Positions 29,419-55,023 of a DNA stretch of 64,000 bases are shown here, piece by piece; position 1 is the first letter of the stretch, and each line of letters begins with the position of its first letter. The notes beneath the pieces were generated by a model that worked only from the letters and a program-made list of their open reading frames with translations, was not told the origin of the DNA and ran no database searches. The translations under genes were made by a program, and so were the position numbers. The DNA is from Blasia pusilla (Eukaryota): positions 41,850,001 to 41,914,000 of the forward strand of contig CM114271.1 in the NCBI GenBank assembly GCA_050084515.1, given 5' to 3'.

Positions 29419-32400
29419 TGTGAGAAAATAGAAAGTGACAAAATCACTGAAATCTTTACAAAACTTAGAGATACAAAGTGGCCAAGTCCGTTCGTGCGCT
29501 CACAAAAGAGCTTCGATGGAACCTGAACATGGAGATAACTCGACATACGAGAATACGCTACCATTGCGGCTCCTAACTATTTGACAACTTGGGAAAACTA
29601 GGGTTTTTACCTATTTTTCTTCGTTTCTATTAATAGGAAAATTTTGCCGGGGGCTACGCCCTCGAACCCCCGCGTCGTCTTGGCATACCAGGGGCTGCGT
29701 CCCGGCCCCCGTGACGCATCAGGTGCCCTGCACCCTGATGCAATATAGGGTTAGATAAATCTAGTAACGCTACTCCTAAAACCACCTACGTCATATTACT
29801 ATGACTCCTTCGACGTCTAAGTCAGAACCATCAATCTAGGCTTCTCCTCATATAAGGGGGCCGATCAGATTAATGGTGCTCAGAGGAGTGGATGTTGAGA
29901 ATCCAACACCCCCCCTCAATATCCACTCTCATGTGGACTACTGTCTTGGACCTATGCCAAGACCCTTCAGATGTCGGTGAAGCTGATCTCCGCTCAAAGC
30001 TTCCGTGAAGATGTCTGCACGGTTATCCTCTGTTGGACAATAGACTAACTTCAAAACCGCTCTCTCGATCAATTCACGAACAAAGTGATACTGGATCTCT
30101 GTGTGCTTCGTACGAGCATGAAACACATGATTATGTGCTATGGCAATGCAACTGTGATTGTCACACCACATTACAGTAGCATTTTCTGGTGCTTCTCCTA
30201 TGTCCTCCAATATCCATCTCAACCATACTGCTTCACAAGAAGCATAACAAGCCGCCTTGCACTCTGCCTCGGTAGAAGAAAGAGCCACTGTAGGTTGCTT
30301 CTTGCTTCTTGGTGACTCATGACACTACACATGATCCTACCAAGAAGCAATAACCCGAAACTGATCTTCGAGAATCTAAATCTCCTGCCCAATCCGAGTC
30401 ACAAAAACCTATCATTTCCGTCCCTGCTCCATAGGTGATGCCGTACTCGATAGTGCCTTTGATGTACTTCAAAATACGCATCCCTGACTTCCAATGGTTC
30501 TCACGAGGCTTAGTTGAGAACCTACTCAACACTCCCACAACAAAGCTAATGTCTGGTCTAGTGTTACACAAAAATATCAAACTGCCTACAAGCTTTCTGT
30601 ACAACTTTTCATCTACCAATGGTGAAACATCCTCCATCGAGAGTTTCAACTCTACCTCCATTGGCGAGACCACTGCCTTACACTCGGTCATCCCGAATGC
30701 CTTCAAGATTTCTCTAGCATACTTTTGATGAGAGAAAAATAGAATCTGACTATTGCCAAATTTCCAGCCCTATAAAGTAGTGCAGAAGACCTAAATCTGA
30801 CATTTCAAACTCAGATTTCAACACTCCCTTCATTTCCTCTATTTTCTTACTGTGATCTCCTTTGATGATAAGATCATCCACATACAGGACTATCAACATA
30901 TACATCCCATCTTGGCAAAACACATACAAATTTGCTTCTGACCGACTCTTGATGAGACCCTTCTCTCGAAAGAATGTATCTATTCGTTGATACCATATCC
31001 TTGGGGCTTGCTTCAACCCATACAATGCTCGATGAAGTAAACAAACTTTCTCTTCTGATCCGGGTGTCTCAAAACCTGGTGGTTGAGAAACATATACCTC
31101 CTCCTTGAGACTCCCATTCAGAAAGGCAGACTTCACATCGTATTGGTATACAGGCCAACGTCTTGTTCCTTCAACCGCTAGAACAATTCGAATGGTTGTC
31201 ATCCTTGCAGTAGGAGCAAAAGTCTCATAGTAGTCAAAACCTTTGATTTGTGAGCATCCTTGTGCAACCAACCTCGCTTTGAATTTATCCAATGTACCGT
31301 CCGACTTGTACTTGGTCTTGTACACCCACTTGGTGCGTATTATCTTCATGTCCTTTGGCTTTTCAACCAAAGTCCAAGTTTCATTTCTCTGAATAGCGTC
31401 CATCTCCATCTGCATGGCCTCTCTCTATTGAGGATGAGCCAGGGCCTCATCCAAGCATGATGGCTCTTCCACCTTCAAGACCTTTGTCATCAAGGCCATG
31501 TTGACGAGATGTGCGGAAGCTCTATTTTGCTCCTCTAGTCTCTTGGATCTCCTTGGATGTGTAACAACTTCATTAGTTGCTGGTGGATCCTTACCATCCA
31601 AGAGCTGCTTTATCCACTTAGGGTATGGCGACCGTTGTGGAAGAGCAGGTTGCTCTTTGTAATCATCACCAAATTCTTCTTCTTGATGATCTGGTGTAAA
31701 CATTGGTGGTATGCTCTGGTGGGTTATCTCTTCGTTTGATGATAATATGGACGGACCACCGATATCCGCCACTTGACGAGGCTGTTCTTGGAACACCAGA
31801 TCACGACTCACAAGCATCTTCTTTTCCTCAGGACACCAAAGGCGATAAGCTTTAGACTCATCACTGTATCCCATAAAGATGCACTTCCTGCTCTTGGACT
31901 CCAGCTTGGTCCTCGATGCTTTAGGAATATGTATGAAACACTCACTACCAAAAGTCCTGAAATGTTGGACTGATGGTACCTTACCTGAGTATGATTGATG
32001 AGGAGTCATGCCTTGCATTGACTTGGTAGCACTTCTATTTAGAATGTATACGGCAGTATTAACAGCTTCAGCCCAAAATCCTTCTATCAAACCTTTTTCT
32101 TTCATCATACATCTTGCCATCTCCACCACCGTACGGTTTCGACGCTCAACAACTCCATTTTTTTGTGGTGTATGTGCCATGGTTAACTGTCGCTTGATTC
32201 CATGCTCCCCCAAATATCTGTTGAATTCTGTTGATAAGAATTCTCCTCCTCGATCGTCGCGAAACTTTTGTGCCTTCTTTCCTGTCTCATTCTCAACCAC
32301 CTTGTGCCATACTTTAAATTTTCCAAAAGCACTTGCCTTATCACGAAGGAAATATATCCACATCTTCCTACTATAATCGTCGACAACTAAAAAGAAGTAG

Positions 32401-34414
32401 GAAGAACCACCTAATGCCACTGTTCTCATTTTACCACAGAGTTCAGCATGTATCAACTCTAGAGGAGCCTTTGCTCTATTGTTGGACTCTTGTGGAAATG
32501 GTTTTCGGTGTTGCTTGCCCATCATACAAGCTTCTCAAGTATCCGACATTCCAGAAATTGTTGGTAAATCAGCAACCATGCCAGATTTCTGCATCTGACT
32601 TAATAAGGGAAAGCTTAGGTGACCAAATCTTTCATGCCATAACTTACTGCTACTAAGATCTGTACCTACACTTGTCGTGAAAGCATACAACTCGTAGATA
32701 CTTCCACGTCGTATACCTTCATCCACTACTTTCCCATTGGCATCCTCAATGACTGCTCTAGTTTTCTTGAAATGAACTTCTAGGTCACGATCACATAAAT
32801 ACTGCCGTTGAAATCAAATTTTGCTTCAACTCTAGTACGTACAGTACATCAGTTAACTTCTTTTCATCTCCTTTTTGTGAGACTAAAGAAATTGTGCCTT
32901 TCCCTTCTTCAGGGCACTTTGCATTATTCCCAACAGTAACAACGATGGGCCTCTGAGAGGTGTGAAGGAGCTATACCAATCCTTATGATTGGTCATATGC
33001 CTAGATGCTCCACTATTGAGCACCCATGCATCTTCACTCTTTGACTTAGTGGAATGTTCTGCCTGTGTGCAAAACTCTTCTATTGCTACCCAAGCATCTA
33101 CTTCATGTTCTTCTAGTTCTACAGAATTTCCAGACTCCTTCTTAGGTCTTAAACAACCGTTCTTCTCATCTTGACTCCTCTTTCTACAATCTTTGATAAG
33201 ATGACCTAGCTTACCAGAATAAAAGTATTTGAAGGCTTTTCTTGGAAATTTCTTCTTGACATTTGAATTGTAATCCTGATTTGTACCTCTCTGTACGTTG
33301 GCAGTAAATGCTGCATCACTTCCCTCTCTTGCTTTGAAGCACATTTCCTCTTCTACCAACATTGCACTAAATTGTTCAAAAGTAAGCGGCAAGGGTCTTA
33401 CTTGATTATTCAGTGCAATGACCAAACTGTCATATCTTGGAGGCAAATCCTTATGCATCGACGTGCCAAATCTTTGCTAGACTTTGAAATTCCTACAGAC
33501 GCCATCTGATCTTGAAGATTCTTGATCCTTGTCAAAAATTGCTCCGCGCTTTCTCCTTCTGAAAATTTCTTGGAGGTAAGCTGATTCTCCAGATTCTGTA
33601 TCCGAGTCTCATTCCTCGTTTCATGCTCATTCTTCAAAATTTTCCATGCCTCAGCAGCAGTGGTTGTATGTTGAATGAGAGTCATGACAGAATCAATTAC
33701 ATTCGTGACAATCGCATATAGAGCATCAGCGTTTATGCGTCTCCATGCCAACAATACAACATGATCGATATCCCCAGATGAAGATGAACATGCAGAACTC
33801 AAAGTAGCTTGTGGATTTGAATCGACCCCTGTGGCCGTTTCCCAGATCTCAAATGATTCGAGGACAGTTCTCATTTTGAACTTCCACAACGTATAGTTAG
33901 ACCCATCTAACTTCCCTTTACCCAGCGGAGGAGGGCCAGCACGAACTGACGAAGAAGTAGCCATCTCTCAAGATTTTGTGCAAACACACTAGATCTTGGA
34001 GATACAAAATCTTTGGAAAACCCTATCGCTCGATACCATGTGAGAAAATAGAAAATGACGAAATCACTGAAATCTTTACAAAACTTAGAGATACAAAGTG
34101 GCCTAGTCTGTCCGTGCGCTCACTGAAGAGCTTCGATGGAACCTGAACATGGAGATAACTCGACATACGAGAATACGCTACTGCTGCGGCTCCCGACTAT
34201 TTGACTACTCGGGAAAACTAGAGTTTTTACCTATTTTTCTTCGTTTCTATTAATAGAAACATAAACCTAGTAACGCTACTCCTAAAACCACCTACGTCAT
34301 ATTACTATGACTCCTTCGACGTCTAAGTCGGAACCATCAATCTAGGCTTCTCCTCATACAAGGGGGCCGATCAGATTTATGGTGCTTAGAGGAGTGGATG
34401 TTGAGAATCCAACA
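29419..34414 (-). mobile_element. Full-length Ty1/Copia LTR retrotransposon (5.0 kb, decayed)
   Basis: LTRs 29419-29908 and 34039-34414 (TGTGAG...CCAACA), TSD GGCTA, Met-i type PBS TGGTATC-GAGC at 34028-34038, PPT at 29909-29919. Confidence 0.97.
29938..33964 (-). pseudogene. Copia gag-pol polyprotein (gag, PR, GAG-pre-INT, INT, RT, RH) with stops and frameshifts
   Basis: KLDGSNYTLWK (gag); WVLNSGASRHM (PR, D to N); LWHERFGH; VDDYSR...DRGGEF...NGVVERRNRT (INT); KARLVAQG, DVKSAFLNG and LYVDD (RT); CDSDWAG, SSTEAE and ADIFT (RH). Confidence 0.95.
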
Positions 34415-41129: not shown

Positions 41130-41717
41130 TCAAATCCATGAAATATGGTCTCTCAAAGGAGTCTGATGTGTGGGATCAACTTTGTGGTGGTGGCAATAAA
41201 ACCACCACCTATCATCGCCACATGCAGCATGGTCATACATAATCCTATCACATGCATAACCCTTGCTCATTGCTTCGTTCAAGCAAGTCCAGTGCCATGC
41301 AATCAGACACCTAGGACAATACACCATGTCCTCCGAGAACTCCTCATCGCGCTTATGGCATCCTCGGCAATAATGCATGGGGTATGCCTCCATTTTCGGA
41401 GGCAAACAAGTAAAACAAAAAAATCTCACACAATACGTATCTGGGCACTGTCTCACACGAAGCTCCGATTCCTCACTTTATGCAAATGTTCCTTGTATAC
41501 CACAATTGGCACACTTGGCCGTCTTCTTCACACAATCTAGGAAAAACCAGCTCCCTACGTGGTTAGGTGGAAGATCTACCCCAGGACAAGCATTTTCTAT
41601 AGCCCCGGCTGATTCTGAAGTTGTGTTGAAATGTCTAGCACAAGGTCCGTCGCAAACAACCAACTCCTCCCCATCCTCACAGATTGCACAAATGTGGGCT
41701 GCCTTCTAGTGAATCGG
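41130..41717 (-). pseudogene. EDM2-like tandem PHD-finger pseudogene, interrupted by MULE-B; probably continues at 54204-54262
   Basis: ICAICEDGEELVVCDGPCARHF...KCANCG...QCPDTYCVRFF...HYCRGC...CPRCLIAWHWTCL...FYCHHHKVDPTHQTPLRDHI follows the EDM2 PHD region pattern (CAICDNGG..CCEG.C.RSFH...YC..H.ID....TP.RDH). In-frame stop and lost cysteines. Confidence 0.8.
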
Positions 41718-44134
41718 GAGTGCACTCGGGGGCAAGTATTCTGACAGGAGAGAGTAAGAGAGGAGAGGAAGAGAGGAAGAGAGGGAGAGAGGAGAGTCTC
41801 TCTTAAAAAAAAAGGGCCAAATCCGCCTCCTCTCTTCAAAACTTTTTGACATATTTGAAATTTTTGTTTGCTTTAAAATTCAGGAAATCTTTAGAAGAGA
41901 GTATTTAGTGGTCCACATTTGGCCCTAAAAAAACCTCCTCTCTCTTGGGGGCGAGAAAAAAGGAGACATCATAAGACCACCCTAAACATTTTTCCATCAC
42001 TCTCCATGTGAGCCTAAGTTTCTTAACATTCCCTGTCTCGGTCAACAAAAAGCACTGCCCTTGGTATTTTTGTTGGAGGACCTCCCGGATGGGTACCTCT
42101 TTTGCAGGATTGTTGCTGCATCATGGCCTCCCTAAATTGCCCCATAACCAACTTTCATCGGGTTATGAATGGTGTCTGCTCAAGACCAACTTTCTGAAAT
42201 GTGAACAAATCAGATCCTAAGGCTGAGAAACCGAGAAGCTGAACCCCTCCCAACCTGTAAGAAAGCTCACCATAAGAAAAGGAAAGATTTTTAGAAGTGA
42301 TTTTCTTCCACCCTCGCACCCACGACGATCTAACGGGTTGGGAATCCGAAATGGCAATCCAAGCGGTGTAGTAGGAATCTGCATATCTTAGACAAGAAAA
42401 GAAGCCTACAATCTGGTTGGACAAATGAAGGGAACGAGCCAAAAGTCAAGAAGCCCGCCACAATGCGCCGTGGTTGGTCTCACCGGATAGAGTCCGATCA
42501 CTCAGTAAATCAACTGTCGGAACCGGACAGTCGCTCGAAATGGTTGAAAAGTTGCAAAGTGGGCAAAAGCAAAAAGTCGAATCACACGGGTTGCAGAATT
42601 GTAATTCTGAGAGCTAAAAGAACACAATCCACAAGTCCAAAAACATATTCCAGCAAACTTTTACAAACATCATTATGGGTTGAAAAAATCTCGTCCTTTA
42701 TTACCTCCGAAGGAACCTCGGAAATGTTCATTTCACCTAGTCTATGATTTCCTGAGCCTCGTCATCTACAAATTTACTCCTAACTCTCCTCGGTGACAGT
42801 ACCAAAGGAATGTCCTAGGATTCAAGTGGCTCCTCTGGCCGATTGTAGACGGGGATCGAAAATGTTGGCGAATTCGAGAGCCTTGGCCCCCCCCTAGGTA
42901 CACCATAACGGTCCCATGTAACCTATCTCGAGTCCCACCGCCTTCCTCGGCAGTATACCTTGTACGCCCGCAATGTGACACCCATCCAAGATCAATATCG
43001 CTCCGTCCCCGGTAATACCACTATGGCAACCGCACAGGTAGAAGGAATCCAACACGTCTGAGAGAAGAAAAGAAGCCTACGCCTGCCTTTACGAGTTGAG
43101 GGGAAGGTGCCAAGGGAAGAAGCCCGCCAGACTACCTCTTAAGTTGGACCAACAGGGAAAGGGTTCGATCAAGCAACCTGTCGGAATCAGACAGGTTGCC
43201 TGGAGGTGGTAAAAAGGGTGCAGTGGTCAAAAAGCGAAAAGTTGCAAGGAGGAGAAATCCGACGGGTTGCAGTGGTCATAAAGTGAAAGTTGCAAGCAAG
43301 AGAAATCCGACGGGTTGCAAAGTAGAAGTCCGTGAAGTACATAGACGATCACATTCGAAAAGAAAAAATGATCAGCAAACATTTACAAGCACCACCATCG
43401 ATCGAAAAAATCTTCTACTTTATATCATCCGAAAAAAGCTCGGAACTGTACATTTGATCTATTTTATGAAATCTTTTGCCTCATTATCAAAAAACTCCCT
43501 ACTCCAAACGCTGCAGTCAAGCTAGGTTGTTGAGTTCTTTGAACTCACTCGTCATCGTCCGAGAGCTCTTGCAAAATCACTTTCGTCCTTGCCCTCCCGA
43601 TTTTGGGAATCGTTGGAAGTGACGATGGAGTCACTACCAAGGGTGGCTCTAGAACCGGAGCTCTCGGCTTCGGTGGAGAGTTGTACGCCCCAATGAGCCT
43701 TTCGTATTCTGCCTTTGCCTCCTTGCAAAGGTCAAACAGTTTCTGCCTTCCCTTTAGGCAGAGAATGTTCCTGCCACTCTGCCAGGCGCCTTTGATACTT
43801 GCCCCTGAAAGTCCCACTAAGTCGAACACCAAATCACCCGGCCTTGAGCAGAGCTCGATGAGCGTTTGCATCAGGGCTCGCGACTTTTCCCTTCCTCCCA
43901 GAAGTGGGATACTGTCTTGCATGTAAATTCCCGGGGGGGAATTGTACAAACTATCTAAGCTGTACCCATCTGAGCATGGATCCACAGGATCCTAGATCTT
44001 GAACACCTGGAAATTGTGCTCGGGCGAACGTAATCAGAGAGCGAGGGAGTGGTCCATCTCAGTAAATCAAAGACGTTGGAAACAATGTCGAAACTAAAGA
44101 AGTCGCCTTGAGAACATTTTCAATAATCGACTTT

Positions 44135-44520
44135 GGATCAACTCGCCGGAGTCCGACGGGTTTTTTGTCCGGACCAACCGCCGAAACCCGGACGGGTTGC
44201 GATTGCTGCTGGGTTTTCCCGGTTGATTTTGGTTTTGGATGCAACCCGTCGGAAGGCGACGGGTTCTTCGGCCTGGAGCGATCCATGCTCGCTTTGAGAA
44301 TAACCCGTCGCTATCAGACGGGTTGAATCCAAAAACCAAAATCAACTGGGAAAACCCAAAAGCAACTGCAACCTGTCGGGTTCCGACGGGTTGCAGGTAC
44401 ACCGCGGTTTTCCCTGTGTATGTGGGAAAGATGCAACCCGTCGGAAACCGACGGGTTGCTCTCAGCCAAGCATGGGCTGCTCTAAGCCAGCAACCCGTCG
44501 CCTTCCGACGGGTTGCTCAC
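44135..44520. repeat. Palindrome array (GCAACCCGTCGG-NNN-CCGACGGGTTGC) in cargo intron 3
   Basis: About 7 copies; perfect example at 44433-44459. Confidence 0.9.
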
Positions 44521-46639
44521 GGACAAAAAAAACCCAGATTGACTCTCATTCTACACATCATCATAAGATAATTGAAATTATTGTACAGGAATTGAGCCTT
44601 ACCCGAATCTGACTCTTCGCGGATCAGAGTGGGTACTCGCTTTTGATGATCCACGATTGTGCCGTCCTCCACTTTAGCGACCTCTTGACGCACTGGAGGT
44701 TGAAGAGCTCGTCCTCTCTCCCTCCAGTCAACACCAAGAAGCAGCCCCTGTCACTCAGATAGGCGTCTGCGAAGGAGAACAAAAGTGCAATCGGGTCATA
44801 ACTGAGCGGCACATTCCACTCAAGTACCTCGTCCGACGGATTCTCGCCCCAAAGTCGCAACCCCGAGGGCAGATCGGCGATCAAGAGATCCACCGCAACC
44901 TCTTCGACCACTCCATTCAACGTCGAGGCAGCGTGCCCGTTTCGTTGGAGCTTCCGTCCCAGCGTTGTCAATTTTTCGATGGCTGGTGTCGACGCTTGAG
45001 AACTGAAGCTCTTCAGCTCATCCAGTAAAGGAGTGGCGAAGGAGGACGCTTGTCCGGGTCGTTGTTTGTCTGTGTCTTCCCAAGGATGATGGGTTGTATT
45101 CTCCTTGGGACAACCCGGGCACCTCTCGCTTCCGCTTCTCCCTAGCCTGGGGACGGCTTGTCGGGGTTTCTATGACCTCGGATTCTGGTGGCGTTTTTTT
45201 TGCCGAGGACCTGGTCCAACCCTCTCTCCCCGCTCGTCTAGACGATTCCGCCTCTGGCCTTGAATCTTCAGCCTCTCTTTGGGAAGACTCGGCCTCTGAA
45301 TTTTTCCCTCCCTCGCCTTGCCTTTGAGACCCGCTGTGGATTTGTCTTTGGCTGTCCAGACCTTGGAAGCCAACTCAGCTGTCTCGTGGGCCTGCTCTTC
45401 TGCATCTCCTCCGAAGAAGTCTTCAGGCTAGACGAAATTGGGGATGTCGTCTTGTCCTAAGGCGACTGCATCATGAAGCACTCGTAAGTCCTTATCCGTG
45501 ATGTCTTCAGGGTCGTTGAAGTCGAGCCAAATGGGGCAATTCTCCACCTCCCAATCGGACATGTGCTGCCCCATCTCCACGTCATACATGGAGAATGTCT
45601 CTGCATCCAGCGGCAAAGCCCACAATTTCAAGGCTACCGGTAATTTTCCCCACGTACCTGCGTTCTTACACTGGACGAGGTACCTGAAGACCATTTGTTG
45701 GGCAGCTTTTAGTCGAACAGAATCGGCCGTCTGCTCCTGTAGATCTCGCTTCTTCTTCGCTTGATCCCGTTTGTTCCCCTCTACTTCTTCGTCAAGCTCT
45801 GCCTGAGGGAGGACGCAAACCTTGAACATGGTCTTGAATCTTGGGTTTTTTGTTGGCTTGTCCCGGATGTCGTCGAGCCAAACCTCGTAATCTCCAGAAC
45901 TTTTAAGGTTTGCTTCCGGCGGAATGGGCTCTAATCTTCTGAGCTCCGCTTGCAGACCGTCCAGCACGGACTTCGCGATTACCCGCAACGCGTCCTTGAA
46001 CGACCATTCGCGTAGCCAATGCAAGATCACTAGATCAGACACACCCGGAGGATGGTGTGCCGCCCTCTTCTGGGCCTCTGAGCCCTCGAGACTGATTTTC
46101 ATCAGTCGTATCCTCCTGAACTCGCTTATCCTGGACAACGCAAACCGATGCACGCGATCTAGCGACACTTTCTCCCCAATCCGACCATGCGGATCTTCAT
46201 CCCTCTTCCGCTGGCGCTTGATAATCGCCTTCAGCTCATTGTAGAACTTTGGACCAAGTTCGGGGTTGAGAATGCTTATGTATCGCTGCATCTTGCTCGC
46301 CGTGTATTTCGTTGCAGCAGATACTGCAACTTGGATGAATTTGGCACGCTCAGACGCAGATACCTTCTCCCTCTGCTCCAACTCCAGTGCAACGCTTTTC
46401 TTCACGGCCTGTATCTTCGACCAACAAAGGATGGTTACGGTTGCATCTTGAGAAATAAACTTGTTTGCCCAAGTTTTCTTCTTAATCTGAGCACCCTTTG
46501 CAAGCATCTGATTGACGAGGGCATCGCCCAAGAACCCCCTGTACTCTCCCGGGTGCGTCGTAAGCACCTTCCTCACCCGATCACAGTCCTAGATCCAGTG
46601 GTGGGTGACATTCCCCTCCGATACAATCCTGCACATCCA

Positions 46640-47275
46640 AACTCAACCCGTCAGGAAATTACATGGGTTCCTGCAACCCGTCGAACTCCGACGGGTCGTC
46701 ACAGCTCAAGGTCGGATTCTAGCAACGAGCTTAATGATGCAACCCGTCGGAGTCCGACGGATTGCATTCAGATTTGCTAATGCCTGGTAAGCAAACTGTC
46801 GGAGTCCAACGGATTGCTCGATAGGCCGCCTTGTGAGGGTGTTTTTTTAAGAATGCAACTCGTCGGACTCCGACGAGTTGCTCGAGTCCGACGGGTTGAT
46901 ATGGGGAAAAATAGCTTCGAGGCAAGCAACCCGTCGGACTCCGACGGTTTGCTTTGGGGAAAAAACCTTCTAAACCTGCAGTCACTCGAACAACTCGTCG
47001 GAGTCCGACAAGTTGCATTCTTCAAAAAGCATCCTCACAAGGCGGCCTGTCGAGCAACCCGTCGGACTCCGACGGTTTGCTTTGGGCCAAAAACTAGTTA
47101 AATCTATGTTCAATCAAACAAGTTGTCGGAGTCCGACGAGTTGCAATCTTAAAAAAACATCCGAAAAAGCGTGCAGTCCAGCAACCCGTCGGAGTCCGAC
47201 GAGTTGCTTTCGGCAAAAACAAACCTAACCCATTCATCAATCGAGAAACTCGTCAGAGTCCGACGAGTTGCGAAA
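46640..47275. repeat. Palindrome array in cargo intron 2
   Basis: About 11-12 copies, mostly at ~60-65-bp spacing. Confidence 0.9.
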
Positions 47276-48738
47276 GTGTTAAAGATACTCATGTGTTCAT
47301 GGCATGCATTGCCATCTCCACCGTCGCCATGTGATGAGGGTATGGGTGAAGGACCACTGCCTTCACGCAAAAATGTGCCTCCAATGAGTTGGGCCGCTCC
47401 TCCGCAAACTTGGTCCACGCCATGAACTTGTGATTTCCATCCCAGATGAAGAAATGCAGATTCCTCATCCAGCTGAATTCCGTGCCCTCAACTTGCCTTC
47501 TGAAGTCCTGGTCTCGCATCCTCCAGAATGTGTCAAGCTTTTCCAAGTCCTCCTCGGTAACCAGAGCTTGGGTTCCATGCTCTTTGTAAGGCTAAACATA
47601 GAAGGGAGGAAAGCTGTCGACGTAGGATGCTATCGCCGCCGATTGTTTTAGCCCGCGATGTCCTCGCTCGGACTGAATTTTTGGACGTATTCCATTGTCC
47701 GCAATCGGCAGAGTGGAATCCTCGGGGCATTGTGGCTCTCCATGAGTGCCATCTGCTTTACCACCTGTCAGAACCGAGACAAGAGGAATAAGCTACACTG
47801 AAATCCCAATGAATTGCAATTCACATAATTCAAAAAACCCAGAACCTCTCTTACCCGCTCGAAAATGGGGTCGGTTTCTTGACCAGCTAACTTGTCTGAG
47901 ACAAAGGCTGGCAAATCGACTGGAAACTCGTCGATCCGATAGAGGTCGATGTCCTCCGCCGGGCTTGGAGTCGAGAATGACCGCTCTCCGGCTTCTTCGG
48001 CCATGTCCACCATCTCCACGTTGGCGGTCCTCATGACCTCGTCGTCATCGATTTCAACTTCTGTTGTTTCCACTATGTTGATTGTGTCCCCGGACTTCGT
48101 GGGGGACATTTCCCGCATCTCAACACTTGCGGTTGGACGGGCTGGGCTATCGTCAATGGCTATTGCTTTTTCCCTCCTCGCTTTAGCCAATTCTGCCCTC
48201 CTCACCGACGCGTCCAGGCGCTTCTTTTCTCTCTTTTCGTCGGCGATCCTTTTCTTCAAGGCCTGCAACGTCTCGGCCTCTGCGTTCTGTTAATCTAGCG
48301 CCTCTTGAACACGTCTTGCAAGAAGCACTTGGTTGTGCATCTCCGCTTCCCTTTCCCGCTCCTCGATTTCCTGCTGCCTAATTTCATTCGCCGAACGAGG
48401 CCCAGGAGAAGCTGACGGAGGAGTCCTAATGGACTTGGGAGTGAAGCTCCCTGACTTGTTGGCTTGTGATTTTTTCCTCGTCATTTTTTCCGGAAATGCC
48501 TCCACCTATGTCCATGACGAATTCCTTGATCAGTCGCCTTGCTGATGTCGAGATGGGGCGTCGAATCGTCCCGCTATCGCTCCGTCGAACGCTCTCGCCT
48601 CGTTTCTCCTCCTATCGACTCGCTACCATTGTGCATGCGGTGAAATGCCCTTCAGATCGATCAGTTGCTCGCTGGAAGAGTGAGGAGTGAGGAATGAAGA
48701 TCGCAAAATGAGAAACCAGAAATGAGCGATTTCTGCCC

Positions 48739-49699
48739 TATTTATACTTTTCTAGCCGTTGGGCTGACCGTTGGGTCCCGTCATCCTTTCCACGGCGACG
48801 TGCCGGATGTTACGGAAGTCCGGACGTGAAAAATGGCAACCCGTCGGAGTCCGACAGGTTGCGCGGCTCCGCCATCCTGGGTACGTCGCCACGTGCGCGA
48901 GCAACCTGTCGGGGACCGACAGGTTGAGCGGCTCCGTCGTCTTCAGAAAAGAACGCGAGGTACCTGCGCAACCCGTCGGAGACCGACATGTTGCGCGCCT
49001 CCGCCATCTTGGGTACGTTGCCACGTGCGCGAGCAACCCGTCGGAGACCGAAGGGTTGAGCGCCTCCGTCATCTTCGGAAAACAACGCGAGGTACCCGCG
49101 CAACCCGTCGGAGCCCGACATGTTGCGCGCCTCCGCCGTGTTTGGGACGGGAACGGGACGTATCTTGGGCAATCCGTCGGAGACCGTTGGGTTGCACGCT
49201 TCCCTCATCAAGGGTTAGGAACGAGGGCTTCCCGTGCAAGTCGTCGGAGTCTGGCGGGCTGCACCACAAGGCGAGGCCCTTGGGCAACCCGTTGGAGGGC
49301 GACGGGTTGCACGCCTTGCCGTCTTTGGGCTAAAAGGCGAGGCACCCGCGGAACTCGTCGGGAACAGACGGTTTGCACGCCTCCGGCATCTTCGGGCAAG
49401 AAGGATCGGTATCCGAGCAACTCGTCGGAGAGCGACGGGTTGCTTGCTTCGACAATGTTTAGCATAAGCGTGCAACCCGTCCGATGCCGACGGGTTGCAG
49501 GCTTCGGTTAACTTCGGGTAATTTCCGAGTTACCAGGACTCCGACGGGTTCCAAGTGTGATACGCAACCCTCTGCTTCCCAAATCCGGTAACATATTGCA
49601 ACAGAATTGAATGTGTTACAAAATTGGATCCATTGTGTCAGACAATGTCACCCACCGAATTCATCTGTCAGGAGTATCTGTTTCCTATTCACTATAAAT
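48739..49699. promoter_or_regulatory. Putative bidirectional promoter: outward-facing TATA boxes flanking a palindrome array
   Basis: TATAAATA on minus (48739-48746) and TATAAAT on plus (49693-49699). About 11-12 palindromes at ~65-bp spacing from 48836 to 49550. Confidence 0.55.
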
Positions 49700-49750
49700 T
49701 AAATATTCTCATTCTCATTCTCAGTCTCCTCCCGTTGGAATCTTCTTGGA

Positions 49751-52700
49751 ATGGATAATTATGTTAAGCTCACTTGTGGCAGTCATCTGACGGCCCTTCC
49801 TCAATCGGAAATCATTCGACCCCAAGCTCGTGAGTCTTTCATAGCAGTGGATGAAAATTTTCTGTCTGATCGATTTCTTCTTCAAATTGGAACCATCTTT
49901 GTATCCAAAGATGTTAGGGTGGATGGTATGGAAGACATAATAGGTGAGACGGTCCAGCCAGTGACCTCAGACCGTAAAGTATGGAATCTCCTACCTCTAC
50001 CAAATGGTCAATACAGAGTTTACGGCCTGCCCCTGAATTCGTCTGTTTCCCAAGTAGACGGTCTAGAATTTCCTAGTGCTCCGAGCTCTACGTTTGCAAC
50101 TCCAAGCTCTGCAGATCCGGCTTCGACTCCAACTTTGCACGCTCGTAACAATGTTGGTTTTCCAGAATAGATTCCGGATGTTATCAACCTCAGTGGATCT
50201 GTCGGGCACCAATCGGGCCCTCTCTCCGCCTACTCGTTCCTCTTGCGAGTATCAGGCAATAGTTTGCTTTCATCTCTGCCCTTGAAAATGTTCAAGCACA
50301 TTCTTGTCGACGAGCTGCCGCCCACGTACGATGGTAATTGCATTTTTGAGTTGCCTCCACTTGTTGCTCCTGCTCAAAAGAAGGATGGAGGACGCCTGAA
50401 GGGTATGGACAGAAAGTCTGATTGTCATCGATAGTGTAGGCTTCAACGGACCAGTGCTTCAATTCCAGATGGTCCTTGGATTGTCTCCCGCCGCCAATGC
50501 GTGGGATCCTTGGAGTGTAGAAGTCCAGCATGCCCGTATCTAGAGCGTAACGGGCAAGTCAATACGTCGCAATTCCCTCCCAAGAATGCAGAAACTCCAT
50601 ACGAGGTCTGTGCCACCATACCGCCCGGAGGCCATCGATGTCCTCATTGTCAAGCATCGCCCTTCTGCGTTGGAGCGTGTCCTGCATACATATTTTTCAT
50701 TGTCCACGACTTGGGCTCCATGTCAGAGTAAACAAGGCTGGTTGTCCATGTTGGCTCCCACACTCATCCTGTGACCGATGCAATTCAAAGACACATCAAG
50801 GAGGATGTGGCGAAGAAAGTAGCCGAGGTCTACAGAAACTCTCCGGGTTCAAAGCCCGGAGTGATCAAGCTCACAACGGCATCACAAATTTGTGAACAAT
50901 TGCTTGGAATCCCAGGACAGGGCGAGATCACAGCGGTTGAGGAGAAACAACTCTGGGAAAATCTCGCATTTCTCGCTGAACCTGAATGCTTCCGGAATTT
51001 GCTGCGTCAGATATGAGTTCTGGATGGAATGACGGCCGAAATGGATGCCATCGCCAGAATCAAGGCCAACTCCAGATTTCCATTCATTCAGAGATGGCAG
51101 TTCATGGGCCAAGGAGGCGAGGGATCTAGGGCCTATGTCTTCAAAATATCAACCACAGGTCCGTCAAGTGGCCTCGATCTTATAGATCGAATGAGGGAAG
51201 GGGAAGATCTTTACGGGAGCTGGGTAAGCTTTGATATTTGCTACAGAGTGCTGAACGGATGGTTGACGATGGATGCTCACGTTTATGACCATGTGGAGAA
51301 GGGACTCAAAACTATATTTGTCTGTGAAGTAAAGGCAGAAGACGTTGGCATTTTGAAGATGTGCTGGTTACTCTTATTGGAGGTGGTGAAGGAAAACAAA
51401 AGGCCACCTCTGGAAATTTATGGGTTCATGGCAAACAATGCACAACCTGGGTGGATTGCTATCCGGGAAGTGTTCTCGGGTGGAGAGGTTCAACCGGAGA
51501 GGGAAAGATCGGATGCTTTCCATTGGCAACAGTCTGTGACCCGGTACACCAAATCTTGCATCAAGGAGAATAAGAGGACAGAGCATGTCACTCTACTCCA
51601 ACGCAAGGACAGACAAAAAACCTTGAAGTAGGCCATGGAATGCCGGGGAAGAACTTCATGGGTGGTGGAGGAAGCATGCGATTGAGGGGAAGTACAAAGA
51701 GTTGTGCTCTTGGTTGAGTTGGTGGACTGTACGTATGAGACAATGGGGAAACTTCATGCGGCAGGTGAGTTCAGTATTTTGTCTTGTCAAGCTCACGCTG
51801 AGAATTGTTTGTAAGGTTGTAGCTCAGGATGAGAAGCGTGGGAATTATATGGATTTCAAACCCAAGAAACCAAGCAAGCTGTCGGATGCGACGGGTTGCC
51901 CGAGTGTGCAACCCGATGGAAACCGACGGGTTGCCCGAGTGTGCAACGTGACGGAAACTGACGGGTTGCCCAAGGGTGCAACCCGACGGAAACCGACGGG
52001 TTGCATCCAGATGTTTGGTGTCGTCCCGAGTGTGCAACCCATCATGATCCGACGGGTCACAGAGTCGTTTATGGGATGCCTCGGCCTTGCAACCCGTCGG
52101 GTTCTGACGGGTTGCAGTAGGTGGGTTTAAGGTTACAAAACGTCGGGACCCGACGGGTCGCAGAGTCGTTCATGGGATGCCTCGGGCCTGCAACCCATCT
52201 GGTTCCGACAGGTCGCTTATTTCTTTGACTCCTGAGTTATTTTCGTTCCCTTCTAACATTGCCATCTTTGTAGGGATTGAACGTTCATGAAAATGCCCTC
52301 TGCCCCAACACAAGTGGAGCAGAAAGTGTTCATTCCTCTTGGAGGTCATCACAAGCATGCCAACGAATTTCTCTTGTGGAGGCATGCCAACAAGACCAGG
52401 CAAGAGCAATGCTACAGTCTGCAACATCCCATATCTTTCTCACAAAAGGCATAACAAAAGGAAAAGGGCCGTCGATCTACGAGCTCTATGTCGTAGGTAA
52501 TTTGTGAGATCTGGTGATGAAAAATTGTATGTAAAGCCTTCAACCGGTGCGTAGTGGAACTCCACTCGAGCAAGACGTACACATAGGTGGGGATATTCGT
52601 GGGCGGGTTTCAAGACGTCCCATACAGATGGTGGTAGAGCAGTCCGAACGAGACTCGTGGAGACCAGATAAGTATCTTGACTTCAGGGAGGTGAAGAGGC

Positions 52701-53775
52701 AGCATCGAGGAATGAATCCGGTGATTGATTTGGATGAGGAAATTACACCGCCGAGGTATTCGGGGACCCCGGACCCGTCCCAAATCCGTGCTGGCGTTAC
52801 TTCTCCAAAATCAGTGAATGTTTTATTTCAAAAGCCCTTCGTTGTTGGAAGTTCGCAACATCCTGTCACTGGGGTGGTTCAACAATATGGGATTCTAGTA
52901 ATGGAGGTGGATTGCAACCTAAAATGGTGGCATATATCTCGGAGCAACCCAGGACGTGGACCCACCTGCAGGGCAGGATCTGATGGCATTAGGAGAGCAT
53001 GCGGCACTTTCCTAAATAAGAATCGCACAAGGATGGACGACCTCTGCCTGGGTTTTGGGGACTCAAAACCTTTGATCATTTCACGAGGACTGGGGATCAA
53101 TTGAAGTACTTCTTCTGCCCAAATGAATCTTGCGCTTTCCGGAAGTCTTATCCGGCTGCCATTGGAGCTCCCGGGAATACCCCCACGATTTGGCCCATCG
53201 CCGTAGGCACAAACTGCACTCAAGACCAAGTGGACAATCTTACAAGTGCCGGTTTCAGACTCGTAGACGGGGGAAGCTCGGAGCATGTTCGCATCACAGA
53301 GACCTTCGCATTTCGTATTCAACCCAAGATTGATGTCAACATGTACCCGGAGAAGGTGGATGATCTCAATCCATTATTTCTGTTTGAGTCTAGAAATAGG
53401 GTGAAGAGAAACAGAATGTGCAGGCCAACGGTGGAGAGAGCAAAGCGAATTGCAGCAGCTTGGGAGGCAAAAATGGAGATCATCGCCATGAAAGATGTCT
53501 TGAGTGGCAATGGAATAGGAAGGATGTATTGGGTCAAGAACAACACTGTAAATTCAAGTGTCACAAGGGTGTATGTGGTGCACATCTGTTGCTTTCCCAC
53601 ATGTTCATGTGATGACTTTGTCCAAAGAGAGACAAGTGGCAAAAGGTATTTCCCTTGTAAGCACATGTACTATGTGTTGCTGGTAGTTTTAAGAGAGTCG
53701 GAGGTAGGAGTAGGAATCCACCAACCAATTCTATCCCTCAAAGAAGTGCGAAGTATTTTAAACAAACCACTTTGA
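49751..53775 (+). pseudogene. MULE-B transposase (GCM-type zinc finger, DDE core, SWIM); exons 49751-51764 and 52274-53775
   Basis: CVGSLECRSPACPY...CPHCQ...CVGACPAYIF...HVGSHTHP; WVSFD (D1); GFMANNAQ (D2 reads N); ERSDAFHW (CxxH position); SGAESVHSSW (E); CSCDDF...PCKH (SWIM). Six in-frame stops (50168, 50432, 50729, 51014, 51629, 52505) and two frameshifts. Intron GTGAGT 51765 to TAG 52273, phase 0. Confidence 0.8.
51870..52215. repeat. Palindrome array in the transposase intron
   Basis: About 8 copies, the first four at 35-bp spacing. Confidence 0.9.
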
Positions 53776-55023
53776 GGATGCAAAATGAGATTTTAGATTG
53801 TACTTTTATTTTTCCTCAACCTTCACTTTGAGCTTGAACTCTATTCAGCCCGGGGCAAATGATAGATTTTTTCCAGACCTTGGATGGAAAAAGTGATTGG
53901 TTCCACACTTATGATTCCACTGATTTTTCAGTTTTCTAAATTTTGTGCAATTTGCAACTCGTCGGACTCAAATGGGTTGCCAAAATATGGAAGAGGAAAA
54001 AAAAACTGTGGGACTGCTTAATATATGAACAAAAAAGTTCAATAAAATTCAAACAAAAATTTTCCTCTCTTCAACCCAACAGAAACTCTCTTAAAAAAAA
54101 AGTAGCTATTTCGGTTGAAGGTAGTTTCCTCTCTCCTCTCTCCTCTCTTCCTCTCTCCTCTCTTCCTCTCTTCCTCTCCTCTTACCGCACCTCGAGTGCA
54201 CTCTATGGTGCTAAACAACGCATCTTGGAGGCTTTCTTGGCTTGTAGCTTCGGGCACGCCAGCTATATGTCAAAGTTATATGTATACAAACCATAACAAA
54301 AGTCAATTGTAGTAGTGTAAGACAAAGCTCATGGAAGAAAGAGGTGAGGGAAAGATTACATCACTAGTAATGAATTGTGTGTATAGTATCTTTCAAAGAG
54401 GAAAAATCAAAATCTTTAGTGTATATATTTTCTTATTGATAATATGGGGAAGCACCCCTAAGTGTCAAACCCATATGAATGACCATCCTAGTATGCAGTC
54501 TGTGACAATATCACCAAGAAAAAATGACAAACACCCAAAATTAGTTATTGTGCACACACAATTTACATCATCGTCCTATTCATTGATTGTATCTTTATGT
54601 CACATATATATGGGGGCAAACTACTTAAATTATTTTTGTGATGGAACATCGAAATGTCTCATGATCTCACCCTAAAATATACATTAGGCTTGTCTATTTC
54701 AGGGTGTGGAAACCCTCCACAAAGTGCCTTATGCTCAAAATTGCAAGACCCTTAGATTAGGTGCGTTTCAAGTGTTTGAGAGGTGTGCAATATAGTGTCT
54801 AAAAATATGAACACCGTATTCATAACAACATCTGTATCTAAGTATCCATTCATCATGCATTTTTAATGTCATTCCCATACTTGTCCATATTATATTAACA
54901 TCACATCTATTTTGAGTTCATAATCATAGTGTCCAATTTATGAGTGTGTGTGGACTATTACTGTTTTGAGTTAGTGTACAAAATTGCTCTAGGGAAAATT
55001 TAGAAGGAAGAAAGTCCAAAAAA

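What the first reader, a model, noticed from the sequence alone, without database searches (positions are those of the whole stretch)
43545..44971. MTase-like domain has non-canonical catalytic (DLPS) and SAM-binding (DLVGLSG) motifs
Seen: VDLLIADLPSG in place of (D/S/N)PP(Y/F), and DLVFDLVGLSG in place of DPFxGSG, while the surrounding scaffold is well preserved. These are not simple C-to-T decay changes. Inference: the family may encode a catalytically altered or dead MTase fold used as a DNA-binding or base-flipping module.
Basis: partly seen in the sequence, partly recalled or inferred. Interest (0 to 1): 0.7.

Follow-up and report, generated by a model that had tools for sequence, protein, structure and literature searches.

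The report
Degenerate methylase domain in Mutator-like transposon
A decayed copy of a many-copy Mutator-like transposon carries an accessory gene ending in a bacterial-type DNA methylase fold that has lost its cofactor-binding and catalytic signatures, a loss partly shared with distant relatives, so it is probably a non-enzymatic relic or DNA-binding module.

Summary
The 3' half is certainly derived from a beta-class (PF01555) DNA amino-methyltransferase: family profile against six phage methylases gives hhalign probability 97.2, E 3.5e-11, and 28 of 42 family members hit PF01555. The 5' half (DLPS) is supported only weakly. The halves lie in different frames because a 545-nt GT-AG intron filled with 27-nt palindromes separates them; two RNA reads from a paralogous copy span that junction.

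This copy is a pseudogene with five premature stops. The odd motif states are still the consensus of this many-copy family. Loss of HPxxKP (0 of 40 relatives and window) and of the first glycine of GxG (kept in 2 of 41) is shared with about 35%-identical relatives elsewhere, so these are old family traits and not private decay.

The gene lies head-to-head with a MULE/SWIM-type transposase inside a possible 12.5-kb element. Most likely it is a catalytically dead methylase fold. A role in binding the element's palindrome arrays is speculation. Motif IV could not be checked in relatives. I rate it a new variant of a known kind, of moderate interest.

The parts
44603..46588 (-). Candidate long exon A: 662 codons in one frame with 3 premature stops (TAG 45430-45428, TAG 45172-45170, TGA 44626-44624). 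It holds a 382-aa region of unknown function (45428-46576), a K/R/E-rich linker, and the putative N-terminal half of the methylase fold (about 44627-45007).
   Evidence: The 382-aa ORF has no homologue and no Pfam or meaningful PDB hit. The 5' limit of the exon is inferred and not shown by RNA.
44864..44875 (-). DLPS (GAT CTG CCC TCG), at the place of motif IV D-P-P-Y, preceded by the strand-4-like VDLLIA.
   Evidence: hhalign aligns it to vDxiitDPPY of six phage methylases at E 0.03, probability 1.7. Pattern test: 1 hit against 0.007 expected, post hoc. All HMM and BLAST searches were negative.
44058..44602 (-). 545-nt intron, GTAAGG...CTGAG, holding a palindrome array (44135-44516).
   Evidence: table 5c: 2 RNA reads of run X20 join 44603 to 44025 with 32 letters between. 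By my reading these 32 letters are a diverged version of 44057-44026: same length, first 13 identical. The intron ends were read. This is below the tool's 3-read listing threshold.
43545..44057 (-). Exon B: 171 codons including the terminal TGA, with 2 premature stops (TGA 44036-44034, TAG 43994-43992). It carries the C-terminal half of the methylase fold (motif X helix, motif I strand and loop, strand 2) and a Pro-rich, acidic tail.
   Evidence: Codon 43994-43992 reads CAG in 9 of 9 RNA reads and about 74% of X1 DNA depth (table 3).
43881..43898 (-). GGREKS, at the place of H-P-x-x-K-P.
   Evidence: H152, P153, K156 and P157 are invariant in the 6 phage methylases. The family has G[SG]RE[IK]S-like strings, and 0 of 40 rows have HPxxKP.
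43803..43823 (-). DLVGLSG, at the place of D-x-F-x-G-S-G (motif I loop). The first Gly is replaced by Leu.
43752..43754 (-). Lys (AAG), at the place of the invariant strand-2 Glu.
   Evidence: E200 is invariant in the 6 phage methylases. In the family column: E 32, K 2, R 2, Q 1, G 1, gap 4, of 42 rows.
43173..52115 (.). Five clusters of 27-nt palindromes GCAACCCGTCGG-N3-CCGACGGGTTGC at about 64-67-nt spacing: 43173-43320, 44135-44516, 46670-47271, 48836-49498, 51889-52115. All lie in non-coding stretches of the element.
   Evidence: 23 matches with up to 3 mismatches, 0 expected. Also.
50700..53772 (+). Decayed MULE-type transposase gene, divergent from the methylase-like gene. RNaseH-like part at 51017-51628; SWIM finger C-x-C...C-x-H in 53020-53772.
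   Evidence: Atlas: MULE and ZSWIM1-3 RNaseH-like clusters at 0.95. Pfam SWIM E 0.014-0.016, 15.4 bits against a 19.6 cut-off. Translation. No Pfam MULE hit.
41718..54203 (.). Possible limits of the element, about 12.5 kb: imperfect inverted repeats of about 200 nt at 41718-41920 and 54000-54203, both starting GAGTGCACTCG.
   Evidence: The alignment is 72% identical overall. I saw no target-site duplication. Tentative.

Best explanation
The finding is the C-terminal domain of a long minus-strand accessory gene of a many-copy Mutator-like (MULE/SWIM) DNA transposon.

The domain descends from a small beta-class (permuted, PF01555-type, phage-like) DNA N6-adenine methyltransferase. It is split by a spliced intron that holds an array of the element's 27-nt palindromes.

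In this lineage the fold has lost:
- the H-P-x-x-K-P segment,
- the first Gly of the G-x-G loop,
- the strand-2 Glu,
- if the upstream exon is read correctly, the aromatic residue of motif IV.

Most likely it can no longer bind S-adenosylmethionine or transfer methyl groups. It would then persist in active copies as a non-catalytic module.

The copy in the window is itself dead, with five premature stops.

Shown: homology of the 3' half, family-wide loss of the SAM-side motifs, pseudogene state, many copies, and low-level minus-strand transcripts of paralogues.

Inferred: the intron (2 reads), the identity of the 5' half, catalytic death, any function, and the element limits.
For: Homology of the 3' half:
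-.
- Phage tblastn gave 172 records at E<=1; of the 25 listed, 19 are annotated as methylases, 5 have no annotation and 1 is 'gp52'.
- Family profile against six phage methylases: probability 97.2, E 3.5e-11.
- 28 of 42 family members hit PF01555 at E<=0.01, best 6.1e-7.

Family traits (42 rows):
- 0 of 40 rows have HPxxKP.
- First Gly position: S 32, L 6, G 2, C 1, gap 1.
- DLSASTGAS recurs both in the ENA clade and in the separate Logan protein P0036.

Not private to this copy: run X1 laid 20,696 contig pieces on 6 kb. Only 4 places there differ in 10% or more of depth, and none is in the motif codons.

Pseudogene: 5 premature stops. One of them reads CAG in 9 of 9 RNA reads and 74% of DNA depth.

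Splicing and strand: 2 reads span the GT-AG junction. RNA depth is almost all 'first mate on +'.

The two halves fit one fold: 169 residues separate the D of DLPS from the D of DLVGLSG, against 148 in the shortest phage methylase.

Complex prediction gave weak support. Score 0.46, best control 0.00. The runs agree in at least 41% of contacts and the partner pLDDT is 50-52. Per the tool, a pass at this level is more often wrong than right unless the guess was likely beforehand, and it may reflect likeness to solved methylases.

Transposon context.
Against: - The 5' half has no significant similarity to any methyltransferase in seven searches. DLPS may not be motif IV at all.
- Motif IV was not seen in any relative.
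- The ENA clade keeps the strand-1 Asp (35 of 42 rows), the last Gly of the loop (31) and the strand-2 Glu (32). Two Logan proteins keep G-x-G. Some members might therefore still bind a ligand.
- No structure of useful confidence was obtained: pLDDT 65 and 42.
- No dN/dS could be computed, because no DNA of other copies is held.
- The RNA reads are few (14-15 per run), all 95-99% alike, and so come from other copies.
- The junction rests on 2 reads, below the tool's listing threshold.
Confidence: 0.55

Rival explanations
1. Pure relic. A canonical phage or bacterial methylase gene was captured by the transposon, lost function early, and has drifted since. The odd residues are neutral decay carried along by the element's amplification, and the domain does nothing.
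For: - The window copy has 5 premature stops.
- The lineage-specific changes Glu>Lys (GAG>AAG) and Pro>Leu are transitions.
- ENA-clade copies show many Arg>Cys and Arg>His variants and truncated ORFs, typical of decaying repeats.
- The loop residues differ between clades: L, S or G at the first Gly.
Against: - The helix, PGD turn, strand and GAS pattern is kept at about 35% identity across at least three clades.
- DLSASTGAS is identical in two separate lineages.
- Paralogous copies are transcribed from the coding strand and appear spliced, with an open frame where the window copy has a stop.
Confidence: 0.25
2. The domain is still an enzyme: a methyltransferase, or other SAM- or nucleotide-using enzyme, with unusual motifs, perhaps acting on the palindromes.
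For: - The Asp of motif IV and its second Pro are kept.
- One phage methylase has DIPY, so Leu at the second position is tolerable.
- The ENA clade keeps the Asp, last Gly and Glu, and two Logan proteins keep G-x-G.
Against: - In this lineage the aromatic of motif IV, the first Gly, HPxxKP and the strand-2 Glu are all changed. All are invariant in the six phage methylases.
- In the bdelloid N4CMT, replacing the SPPY motif with APPA (Ser and Tyr to Ala) abolished activity (PMC8885841, passages read).
Confidence: 0.08
3. Only the 3' exon is methylase-derived. The DLPS peptide upstream is a chance look-alike, and the N-terminal half of the fold is lost or unrecognisable.
For: Seven sequence searches with the upstream peptide found no methyltransferase. 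hhalign probability is only 1.7. The AlphaFold model has pLDDT 42.
Against: - VDLLIADLP, then GCFLVLTGG, then WIIK follow the order and spacing of strand 4/motif IV, strand 5, and the hydrophobic-W-x-K strand of the phage methylases.
- The strand-4 pattern occurs once in 77,221 residues of window ORFs, with 0.007 expected, post hoc.
- The language-model neighbours with a family are all amino-methyltransferases, at 0.89, a lead only.
- The peptide lies in the same spliced frame.
- A C-terminal half alone cannot form the fold (established knowledge of Rossmann-fold methyltransferases).
Confidence: 0.2

Closest known systems
Small beta-class (permuted) DNA N6-adenine methyltransferases of phages and R-M systems (Pfam PF01555 N6_N4_Mtase; for example M.RsrI, DpnA-type, phage orphan methylases)
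   Same: Same order of elements: strand 4/motif IV first, then the helix before motif I, motif I and strand 2. Similar size, with 169 against 148 residues between the two Asp. The 3' half is clearly homologous.
   Different: It lacks HPxxKP, the first Gly of GxG, the strand-2 Glu and the motif IV aromatic. It is eukaryotic, intron-bearing, fused behind about 560 residues of unknown sequence, and carried by a transposon. The window copy scores below Pfam's cut-off.
Bdelloid rotifer N4CMT (PMC8885841; passages read)
   Same: A PF01555-type permuted bacterial methylase living in a eukaryotic genome with introns. The paper states that N4CMT has no eukaryotic homologues.
   Different: N4CMT is a single-copy host gene with an intact SPPY, is active, and is fused to a chromodomain. 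Here the motifs are degenerate and the gene rides a transposon.
Methyltransferase-like domain of DIRS1 retrotransposons (Iyer, Zhang and Aravind, PMC4738411; passages and section 8 read)
   Same: A transposable-element-borne amino-methyltransferase domain judged inactive in all copies because catalytic and substrate-binding residues are substituted. It is proposed to act by binding and not by catalysis.
   Different: The DIRS1 domain belongs to a different group (PCIF1-like, group 2) and sits in a retrotransposon polyprotein. No reverse transcriptase or tyrosine recombinase adjoins the gene here.
METTL14 (PMC4738411, passage read)
   Same: A permuted amino-methyltransferase fold with disrupted active-site motifs, retained as a non-catalytic partner.
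   Different: METTL14 is in the MT-A70 clade, is a conserved single-copy host gene, and works as a heterodimer with an active paralogue. No active paralogue is known here.
VANC anti-silencing proteins of VANDAL (MuDR-family) transposons (PMC5735166, abstract and outline read; cited in PMC12730594, passages read)
   Same: This is an analogy only. VANC is an accessory protein of a Mutator-family element, and its DNA targets form tandem repeats in the element's own non-coding regions. Here, arrays of one palindrome fill the non-coding parts of the element.
   Different: No sequence relationship was tested or is claimed. VANC is not a methyltransferase fold as far as I know (recalled). Binding of this protein to the palindromes is untested.

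Membership tests
PF01555 N6_N4_Mtase / beta-class DNA amino-methyltransferases | Sequence match to the family profile | tested here: inconclusive
   The window copy scores 19.5 bits, E 1.1e-3, below the 26.7 gathering score, and covers profile positions 165-213 of 221 only. At family level the homology is clear: 28 of 42 members at E<=0.01, hhalign probability 97.2, E 3.5e-11, and own HMM E 4.1e-11.
PF01555 N6_N4_Mtase / beta-class DNA amino-methyltransferases | Permuted order: catalytic motif IV N-terminal to SAM-binding motif I | tested here: inconclusive
   DLPS lies 169 residues upstream of DLVGLSG in the spliced frame. The identity of DLPS as motif IV rests on hhalign E 0.03 and a post-hoc pattern.
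PF01555 N6_N4_Mtase / beta-class DNA amino-methyltransferases | Motif IV (D/S/N)-P-P-(Y/F/W) | tested here: not met
   The window has D-L-P-S. D, the second P and Y are invariant in six phage methylases, one of which has DIPY.
PF01555 N6_N4_Mtase / beta-class DNA amino-methyltransferases | Motif I loop G-x-G after strand 1 | tested here: not met
   The window has L-S-G. G181, S182 and G183 are invariant in the six phage methylases.
PF01555 N6_N4_Mtase / beta-class DNA amino-methyltransferases | H-P-x-x-K-P before the motif I helix, and an acidic residue at the end of strand 2 | tested here: not met
   The window has GGREKS and Lys. H152, P153, K156, P157 and E200 are invariant in the six phage methylases.
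PF01555 N6_N4_Mtase / beta-class DNA amino-methyltransferases | SAM binding and methyl transfer to DNA | not testable with these tools
   The spliced domain could not be handed to the fold tools as one chain. The fragment models were poor.
Mutator-like elements (MULE/MuDR superfamily) | Transposase with a MULE RNaseH-like DDE domain | tested here: inconclusive
   Atlas neighbours carry MULE or ZSWIM1-3 RNaseH-like domains at 0.95. There is no Pfam hit at E<=0.05.
Mutator-like elements (MULE/MuDR superfamily) | C-terminal SWIM zinc finger | tested here: inconclusive
   C-S-C...C-K-H is present. Pfam SWIM E 0.014-0.016, 15.2-15.4 bits against a 19.6 cut-off.
Mutator-like elements (MULE/MuDR superfamily) | Long terminal inverted repeats and a 9-11-bp target-site duplication (the duplication length is recalled) | tested here: inconclusive
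   There is an inverted similarity of about 200 nt at 41718-41920 and 54000-54203. The 9 bases flanking those ends differ.
DIRS1-type inactive methyltransferase domain | Embedded in a retrotransposon polyprotein with reverse transcriptase and tyrosine recombinase | tested here: not met
   No RT, RNase H or recombinase hit among 73 ORFs scanned, of the 160 stop-to-stop ORFs of 60 aa or more overlapping 36-58 kb.

The most novel reading that the evidence does not exclude
Active copies of this Mutator-like element make a protein whose dead methylase fold has been turned into a sequence-specific reader of the element's own 27-nt palindromes. These palindromes fill its introns, its bidirectional promoter region and its 3' flank. 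By coating these arrays the protein would mark or protect the element, either as an anti-silencing factor in the manner of VANC or as a transposition cofactor. That would be a new use of a restriction-modification-type methylase fold in a eukaryotic transposon.
Probability: 0.15. Interest if true: 0.75.

Novelty: new variant of a known kind. Interest (0 to 1): 0.42.

Why it matters
PF01555-type methylases are very rare in eukaryotes. The one studied case, the bdelloid N4CMT, was reported as having no eukaryotic homologues (PMC8885841, passages read). Here a related fold is carried by a many-copy DNA transposon in at least one eukaryote, with relatives in at least two other unnamed sources.

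Its cofactor-side motifs were lost before those lineages split. That makes it a second, independent example, after the DIRS1 domain, of a transposon keeping a methylase fold without its chemistry.

If intact copies prove to be under selection, the protein and the palindrome arrays form a ready test case for how transposons recognise themselves or evade silencing. If not, it is a well-documented relic.

Four literature searches found no description of such a gene in a Mutator-like element. These cover open-access full text only.

Tried and rejected
- Own genome: not held.
- Other copies in the window: none. One search gave self hits only, plus one 35-residue match of ex2 at 11640-11744, E 0.001, which I did not follow up.
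- Homologues of ex1: 'longer' search, 0 of 547 candidates.
- Homologues of the 382-aa ORF: 0 of 4301 candidates.
- Exhaustive phmmer with ex2: 3 hits at E<=1e-3. One, P0001, is a repetitive artefact.
- Cluster look-up of P0002 and P0003: singletons without names.
- Two metagenome scans for loci: none confirmed.
- Earlier findings of the scan: nothing in 5 answered look-ups; one search was a format error and was not counted.
- AlphaFold of ex2 with 42 sequences: pLDDT 65. Foldseek against PDB: no match at E<=0.001.
- AlphaFold of ex1 alone: pLDDT 42, unusable.
- A ParB-like reading of 'FFIWDGNHKFMAW' (47292-47591, a resemblance recalled from memory): no Pfam, PDB or phage hit. Dropped.
- Rfam on the whole window: 0 matches.
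- RNA holders: no RNA holder was listed by the index.
- Rejected: chance similarity for the 3' half.
- Rejected: a DIRS1-type element, because no RT or recombinase was found.
- Rows left out of alignment A2: P0001 (artefact), P0043 and P0044 (the two weakest of the 43 hits).


Full report
WHAT IS THERE. The window looks eukaryotic and repeat-rich. A Ty3-type pol lies at 17820-19856 and copia-type gag, integrase and RT at 30750-33964. No genome is held for it.

At the finding, two minus-strand ORFs carry the quoted peptides. ORF 44624-44971 ('ex1') reads ...VAVDLLIADLPSG.... ORF 43545-43985 ('ex2') reads ...PGDLVFDLVGLSGAS.... They are in different frames and 640 nt apart. The gap holds an array of 27-nt palindromes.

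IS IT A METHYLASE FOLD? For ex2, yes.
- Alone it is marginal. Pfam PF01555 gives E 1.1e-3 and 19.5 bits against a cut-off of 26.7. The best PDB hits are M.RsrI at E 0.018 and a DpnA-type methylase at E 0.83. PHROG DNA-methyltransferase families give E 2.5e-5 to 7.7e-4.
- tblastn finds 172 phage records at E<=1. Of the 25 listed, 19 are annotated as methylases, 5 have no annotation and 1 is 'gp52'.
- An exhaustive phmmer over 1.84 billion representatives gave only two real relatives. A profile of these three sequences then found 43 ORF pieces at E<=0.01 among 604 candidates. Most come from long ENA contigs, several to a contig, and four from Logan assemblies.
- I aligned the window peptide with 41 of them as alignment A2, leaving out the two weakest. 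28 of the 42 hit PF01555 at E<=0.01, best 6.1e-7.
- Against an alignment of six annotated phage methylases (A3), the family profile scores hhalign probability 97.2, E 3.5e-11 over 80 columns, covering the helix before motif I, motif I and strand 2.
- An HMM of the six hits ex2 at E 4.1e-11 among the window's 1314 ORFs.

For ex1 the evidence is weak, and I report it as such.
- Negative: Pfam, NCBIfam and PHROGs; PDB; phage tblastn, with 3 chance hits and no methylase; the six-methylase HMM, where ex1 is not in the top 20; and phmmer and blastp against decoys plus the six methylases, where none of them ranks.
- AlphaFold without an alignment gave pLDDT 42.
- Positive: hhalign places VDLLIADLPSG on vDxiitDPPY and DRGCFLVLTGG on the next strand, at E 0.03 but probability only 1.7.
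- Positive: a strand-4-plus-motif pattern, written after seeing the sequence, occurs once in 77,221 residues of window ORFs, at ex1, against 0.007 expected.
- Positive: the language-model neighbours that carry a family are all amino-methyltransferases (MTS, UPF0020), at scores up to 0.89, which the tool calls a lead only.
- Complex prediction of ex1 with ex2 gave 'weak support'. Score 0.46, best control 0.00. The runs agree in at least 41% of contacts and the partner pLDDT is 50-52. The tool states that a pass at this level is more often wrong than right unless the guess was likely beforehand, and halves of a known fold can pass by likeness.
- I put the odds that ex1 is the N-terminal half of the fold at about 0.7-0.8. 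The main reason is that a C-terminal half cannot fold alone and ex1 sits in the same spliced frame at the right distance.

GENE STRUCTURE. I laid three RNA runs and one DNA run of the same coded organism on 43000-49000.
- RNA reads are few, 14-15 per run, and all 95-99% alike. They therefore come from paralogous copies and not from this copy.
- Almost all RNA depth is 'first mate on +'. In the usual stranded libraries that means minus-strand RNA.
- Two reads of X20 join 44603 to 44025 with 32 letters between. By my reading those 32 letters match 44057-44026 in length, and their first 13 bases are identical. The piece removed is therefore 44602-44058: 545 nt, GTAAGG...CTGAG, holding the palindrome array. 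This is below the tool's three-read threshold and is an inference.
- With that splice, the frame of ex1 runs on into the frame of ex2.
- The 382-aa ORF upstream (45428-46576) is in ex1's frame too, with two stops between them. The simplest model is one long exon (46588-44603, 662 codons) plus a last exon (44057-43545, 171 codons).

THIS COPY IS DEAD. The model has five premature stops: 45430, 45172, 44626, 44036 and 43994.
- At 43994 the other copies read CAG: 9 of 9 RNA reads and about 74% of the DNA depth in X1.
- At 43909 they read Thr, as the ENA relatives do, where the window has Ile.

ARE THE ODD MOTIFS PRIVATE DECAY? No.
- Run X1 laid 20,696 contig pieces on the 6 kb, so the family has many copies. 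I cannot give a copy number.
- Only four places in X1 differ in 10% or more of depth, and none lies in the codons of DLPS, GGREKS or DLVGLSG.
- In A2 (42 rows), the segment that is H-P-x-x-K-P in all six phage methylases is G[SG]RE[IK]S-like in the family. 0 of 40 rows with residues have HPxxKP.
- At the first Gly of G-x-G the family has S 32, L 6 (the window among them), G 2, C 1, gap 1.
- The loop reads DLSASTGAS both in the ENA clade and in a separate Logan protein, P0036.
- What the family keeps is the structural core: the hydrophobic helix, the PGD turn, the strand ending in Asp (D 35, N 5), the last Gly (31) and Ala-Ser.
- The ENA clade also keeps the strand-2 Glu (E 32), where the window lineage has Lys. 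Two Logan proteins (P0002, P0033) keep G-x-G.
- So the loss of HPxxKP is old and general. The loss of the first Gly is widespread but not universal. The window lineage is the most degenerate.
- Motif IV could not be checked, because every relative's ORF piece begins downstream of it, at ...VLLVKTG....

- Leu in DLPS is CTG, one C>T from CCG. Leu in DLV is TTA, two C>T from CCA.
- Ser (TCG) for Tyr, Phe or Trp, and Leu (CTT) for Gly, need transversions.
- The Pro positions are in any case not invariant. Among the six phage methylases one has DIPY, and others have DFF or DTF before GSG.

CONTEXT.
- The 27-nt palindrome GCAACCCGTCGG-N3-CCGACGGGTTGC occurs 23 times with up to 3 mismatches, against 0 expected. 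The hits fall in five clusters between 43173 and 52115, spaced about 64-67 nt apart.
- The clusters lie 3' of the gene, in the spliced intron, in a probable second intron (46670-47271), between the gene and a divergent plus-strand gene (48836-49498), and inside that gene's region (51889-52115).
- The plus-strand gene is a decayed MULE-type transposase. Its Atlas neighbours carry MULE or ZSWIM1-3 RNaseH-like domains at 0.95. A C-x-C...C-x-H SWIM finger is present, with Pfam E 0.014-0.016, below the cut-off.
- Imperfect inverted repeats of about 200 nt at 41718-41920 and 54000-54203 may bound a 12.5-kb element. I found no target-site duplication.

HOW IT MOST LIKELY WORKS. The domain comes from a small phage-type beta-class adenine methylase. 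The changed positions are those that are invariant in the canonical enzymes and that, by established knowledge of the fold, line the SAM pocket and stack on the flipped base.
- In N4CMT, replacing the SPPY motif with APPA (Ser and Tyr to Ala) abolished activity (PMC8885841, passages read).
- I therefore think the domain is catalytically dead in this lineage (about 0.65).
- In active copies it either serves a binding role or is a hitch-hiking relic.
- The idea that it reads the palindrome arrays, by analogy with VANC of VANDAL elements, whose targets form tandem repeats in the element's non-coding regions (PMC5735166, abstract and outline read), is attractive but untested (about 0.15).

COMPARISON WITH WHAT IS KNOWN.
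- Iyer, Zhang and Aravind (PMC4738411; passages and section 8 read) list the eukaryotic amino-methyltransferase clades. They note that all DIRS1 retrotransposon methylase domains are probably inactive and may act by binding. They also note that METTL14 has disrupted motifs. That is the known kind.
- This gene is a different fold subgroup (PF01555-type) in a different transposon class.
- Bao and Jurka (PMC3627910, passages read) describe methylases in virus-borne Mariner elements.
- Kojima (PMC12730594, passages read) reviews transposon-borne epigenetic enzymes.
- Neither paper, nor four full-text searches, turned up a PF01555-like gene in a Mutator-like element. I read no supplements.

VERDICT. 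The feature is real. The 'dead fold' reading is the best one. The copy in hand is a pseudogene, and any function belongs to other copies.

Noticed in passing
window 43173-52115 (clusters 43173-43320, 44135-44516, 46670-47271, 48836-49498, 51889-52115): Arrays of a 27-nt perfect-type palindrome, GCAACCCGTCGG-N3-CCGACGGGTTGC, at about 64-67-nt spacing. There are 23 matches against 0 expected, all in non-coding parts of the element, including a spliced intron.
   Followed up: partly
window 44139-47243: DNA contigs of run X1 join the two palindrome arrays to each other (for example 44158 to 47025, and 47092-47243 back to 44139). This suggests rearranged or deletion derivatives of the element formed between arrays, or assembly ambiguity at the repeats (table 5c).
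   Followed up: no
window 50700-53772 (+): A decayed MULE-type transposase with a SWIM finger, divergent from the methylase-like gene. Where the family's second catalytic Asp would be expected (position recalled, not tested) it reads FMANNAQ.
   Followed up: partly
window 41718-41920 and 54000-54203: Imperfect inverted repeats of about 200 nt, rich in GAGAGG and both beginning GAGTGCACTCG. They may be the element's termini, about 12.5 kb apart. No target-site duplication was seen.
   Followed up: partly
window 41133-41705 (-): Two ORFs with weak PHD-finger matches (E 1.8e-4 to 3.4e-3, below the cut-offs), just outside the putative left end of the element.
   Followed up: no
window 47292-47591 (-): An upstream ORF with 'FFIWDGNHKFMAW', which recalled a ParB-type DGxHR motif. 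It has no Pfam, PDB or phage hit, so this remains unsupported.
   Followed up: yes
window 11640-11744 (+): A 35-residue tblastn match (43% identity, E 0.001) to residues 75-108 of the ex2 peptide. It may be a fragment of another copy, or chance.
   Followed up: no
window 17820-19856 (-) and 30750-33964 (-): A Ty3-type pol (RT, RNase H, integrase zinc domain) and a copia-type element (gag, integrase, RVT_2). Ordinary retrotransposons.
   Followed up: no
proteins P0003-P0042 (ENA clade): Relatives occur several to a contig: the pairs P0004/P0015, P0008/P0039 and P0037/P0043 share contig lengths. They show many Arg>Cys and Arg>His variants, as expected of a multi-copy, methylation-decayed repeat in another eukaryote.
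   Followed up: no
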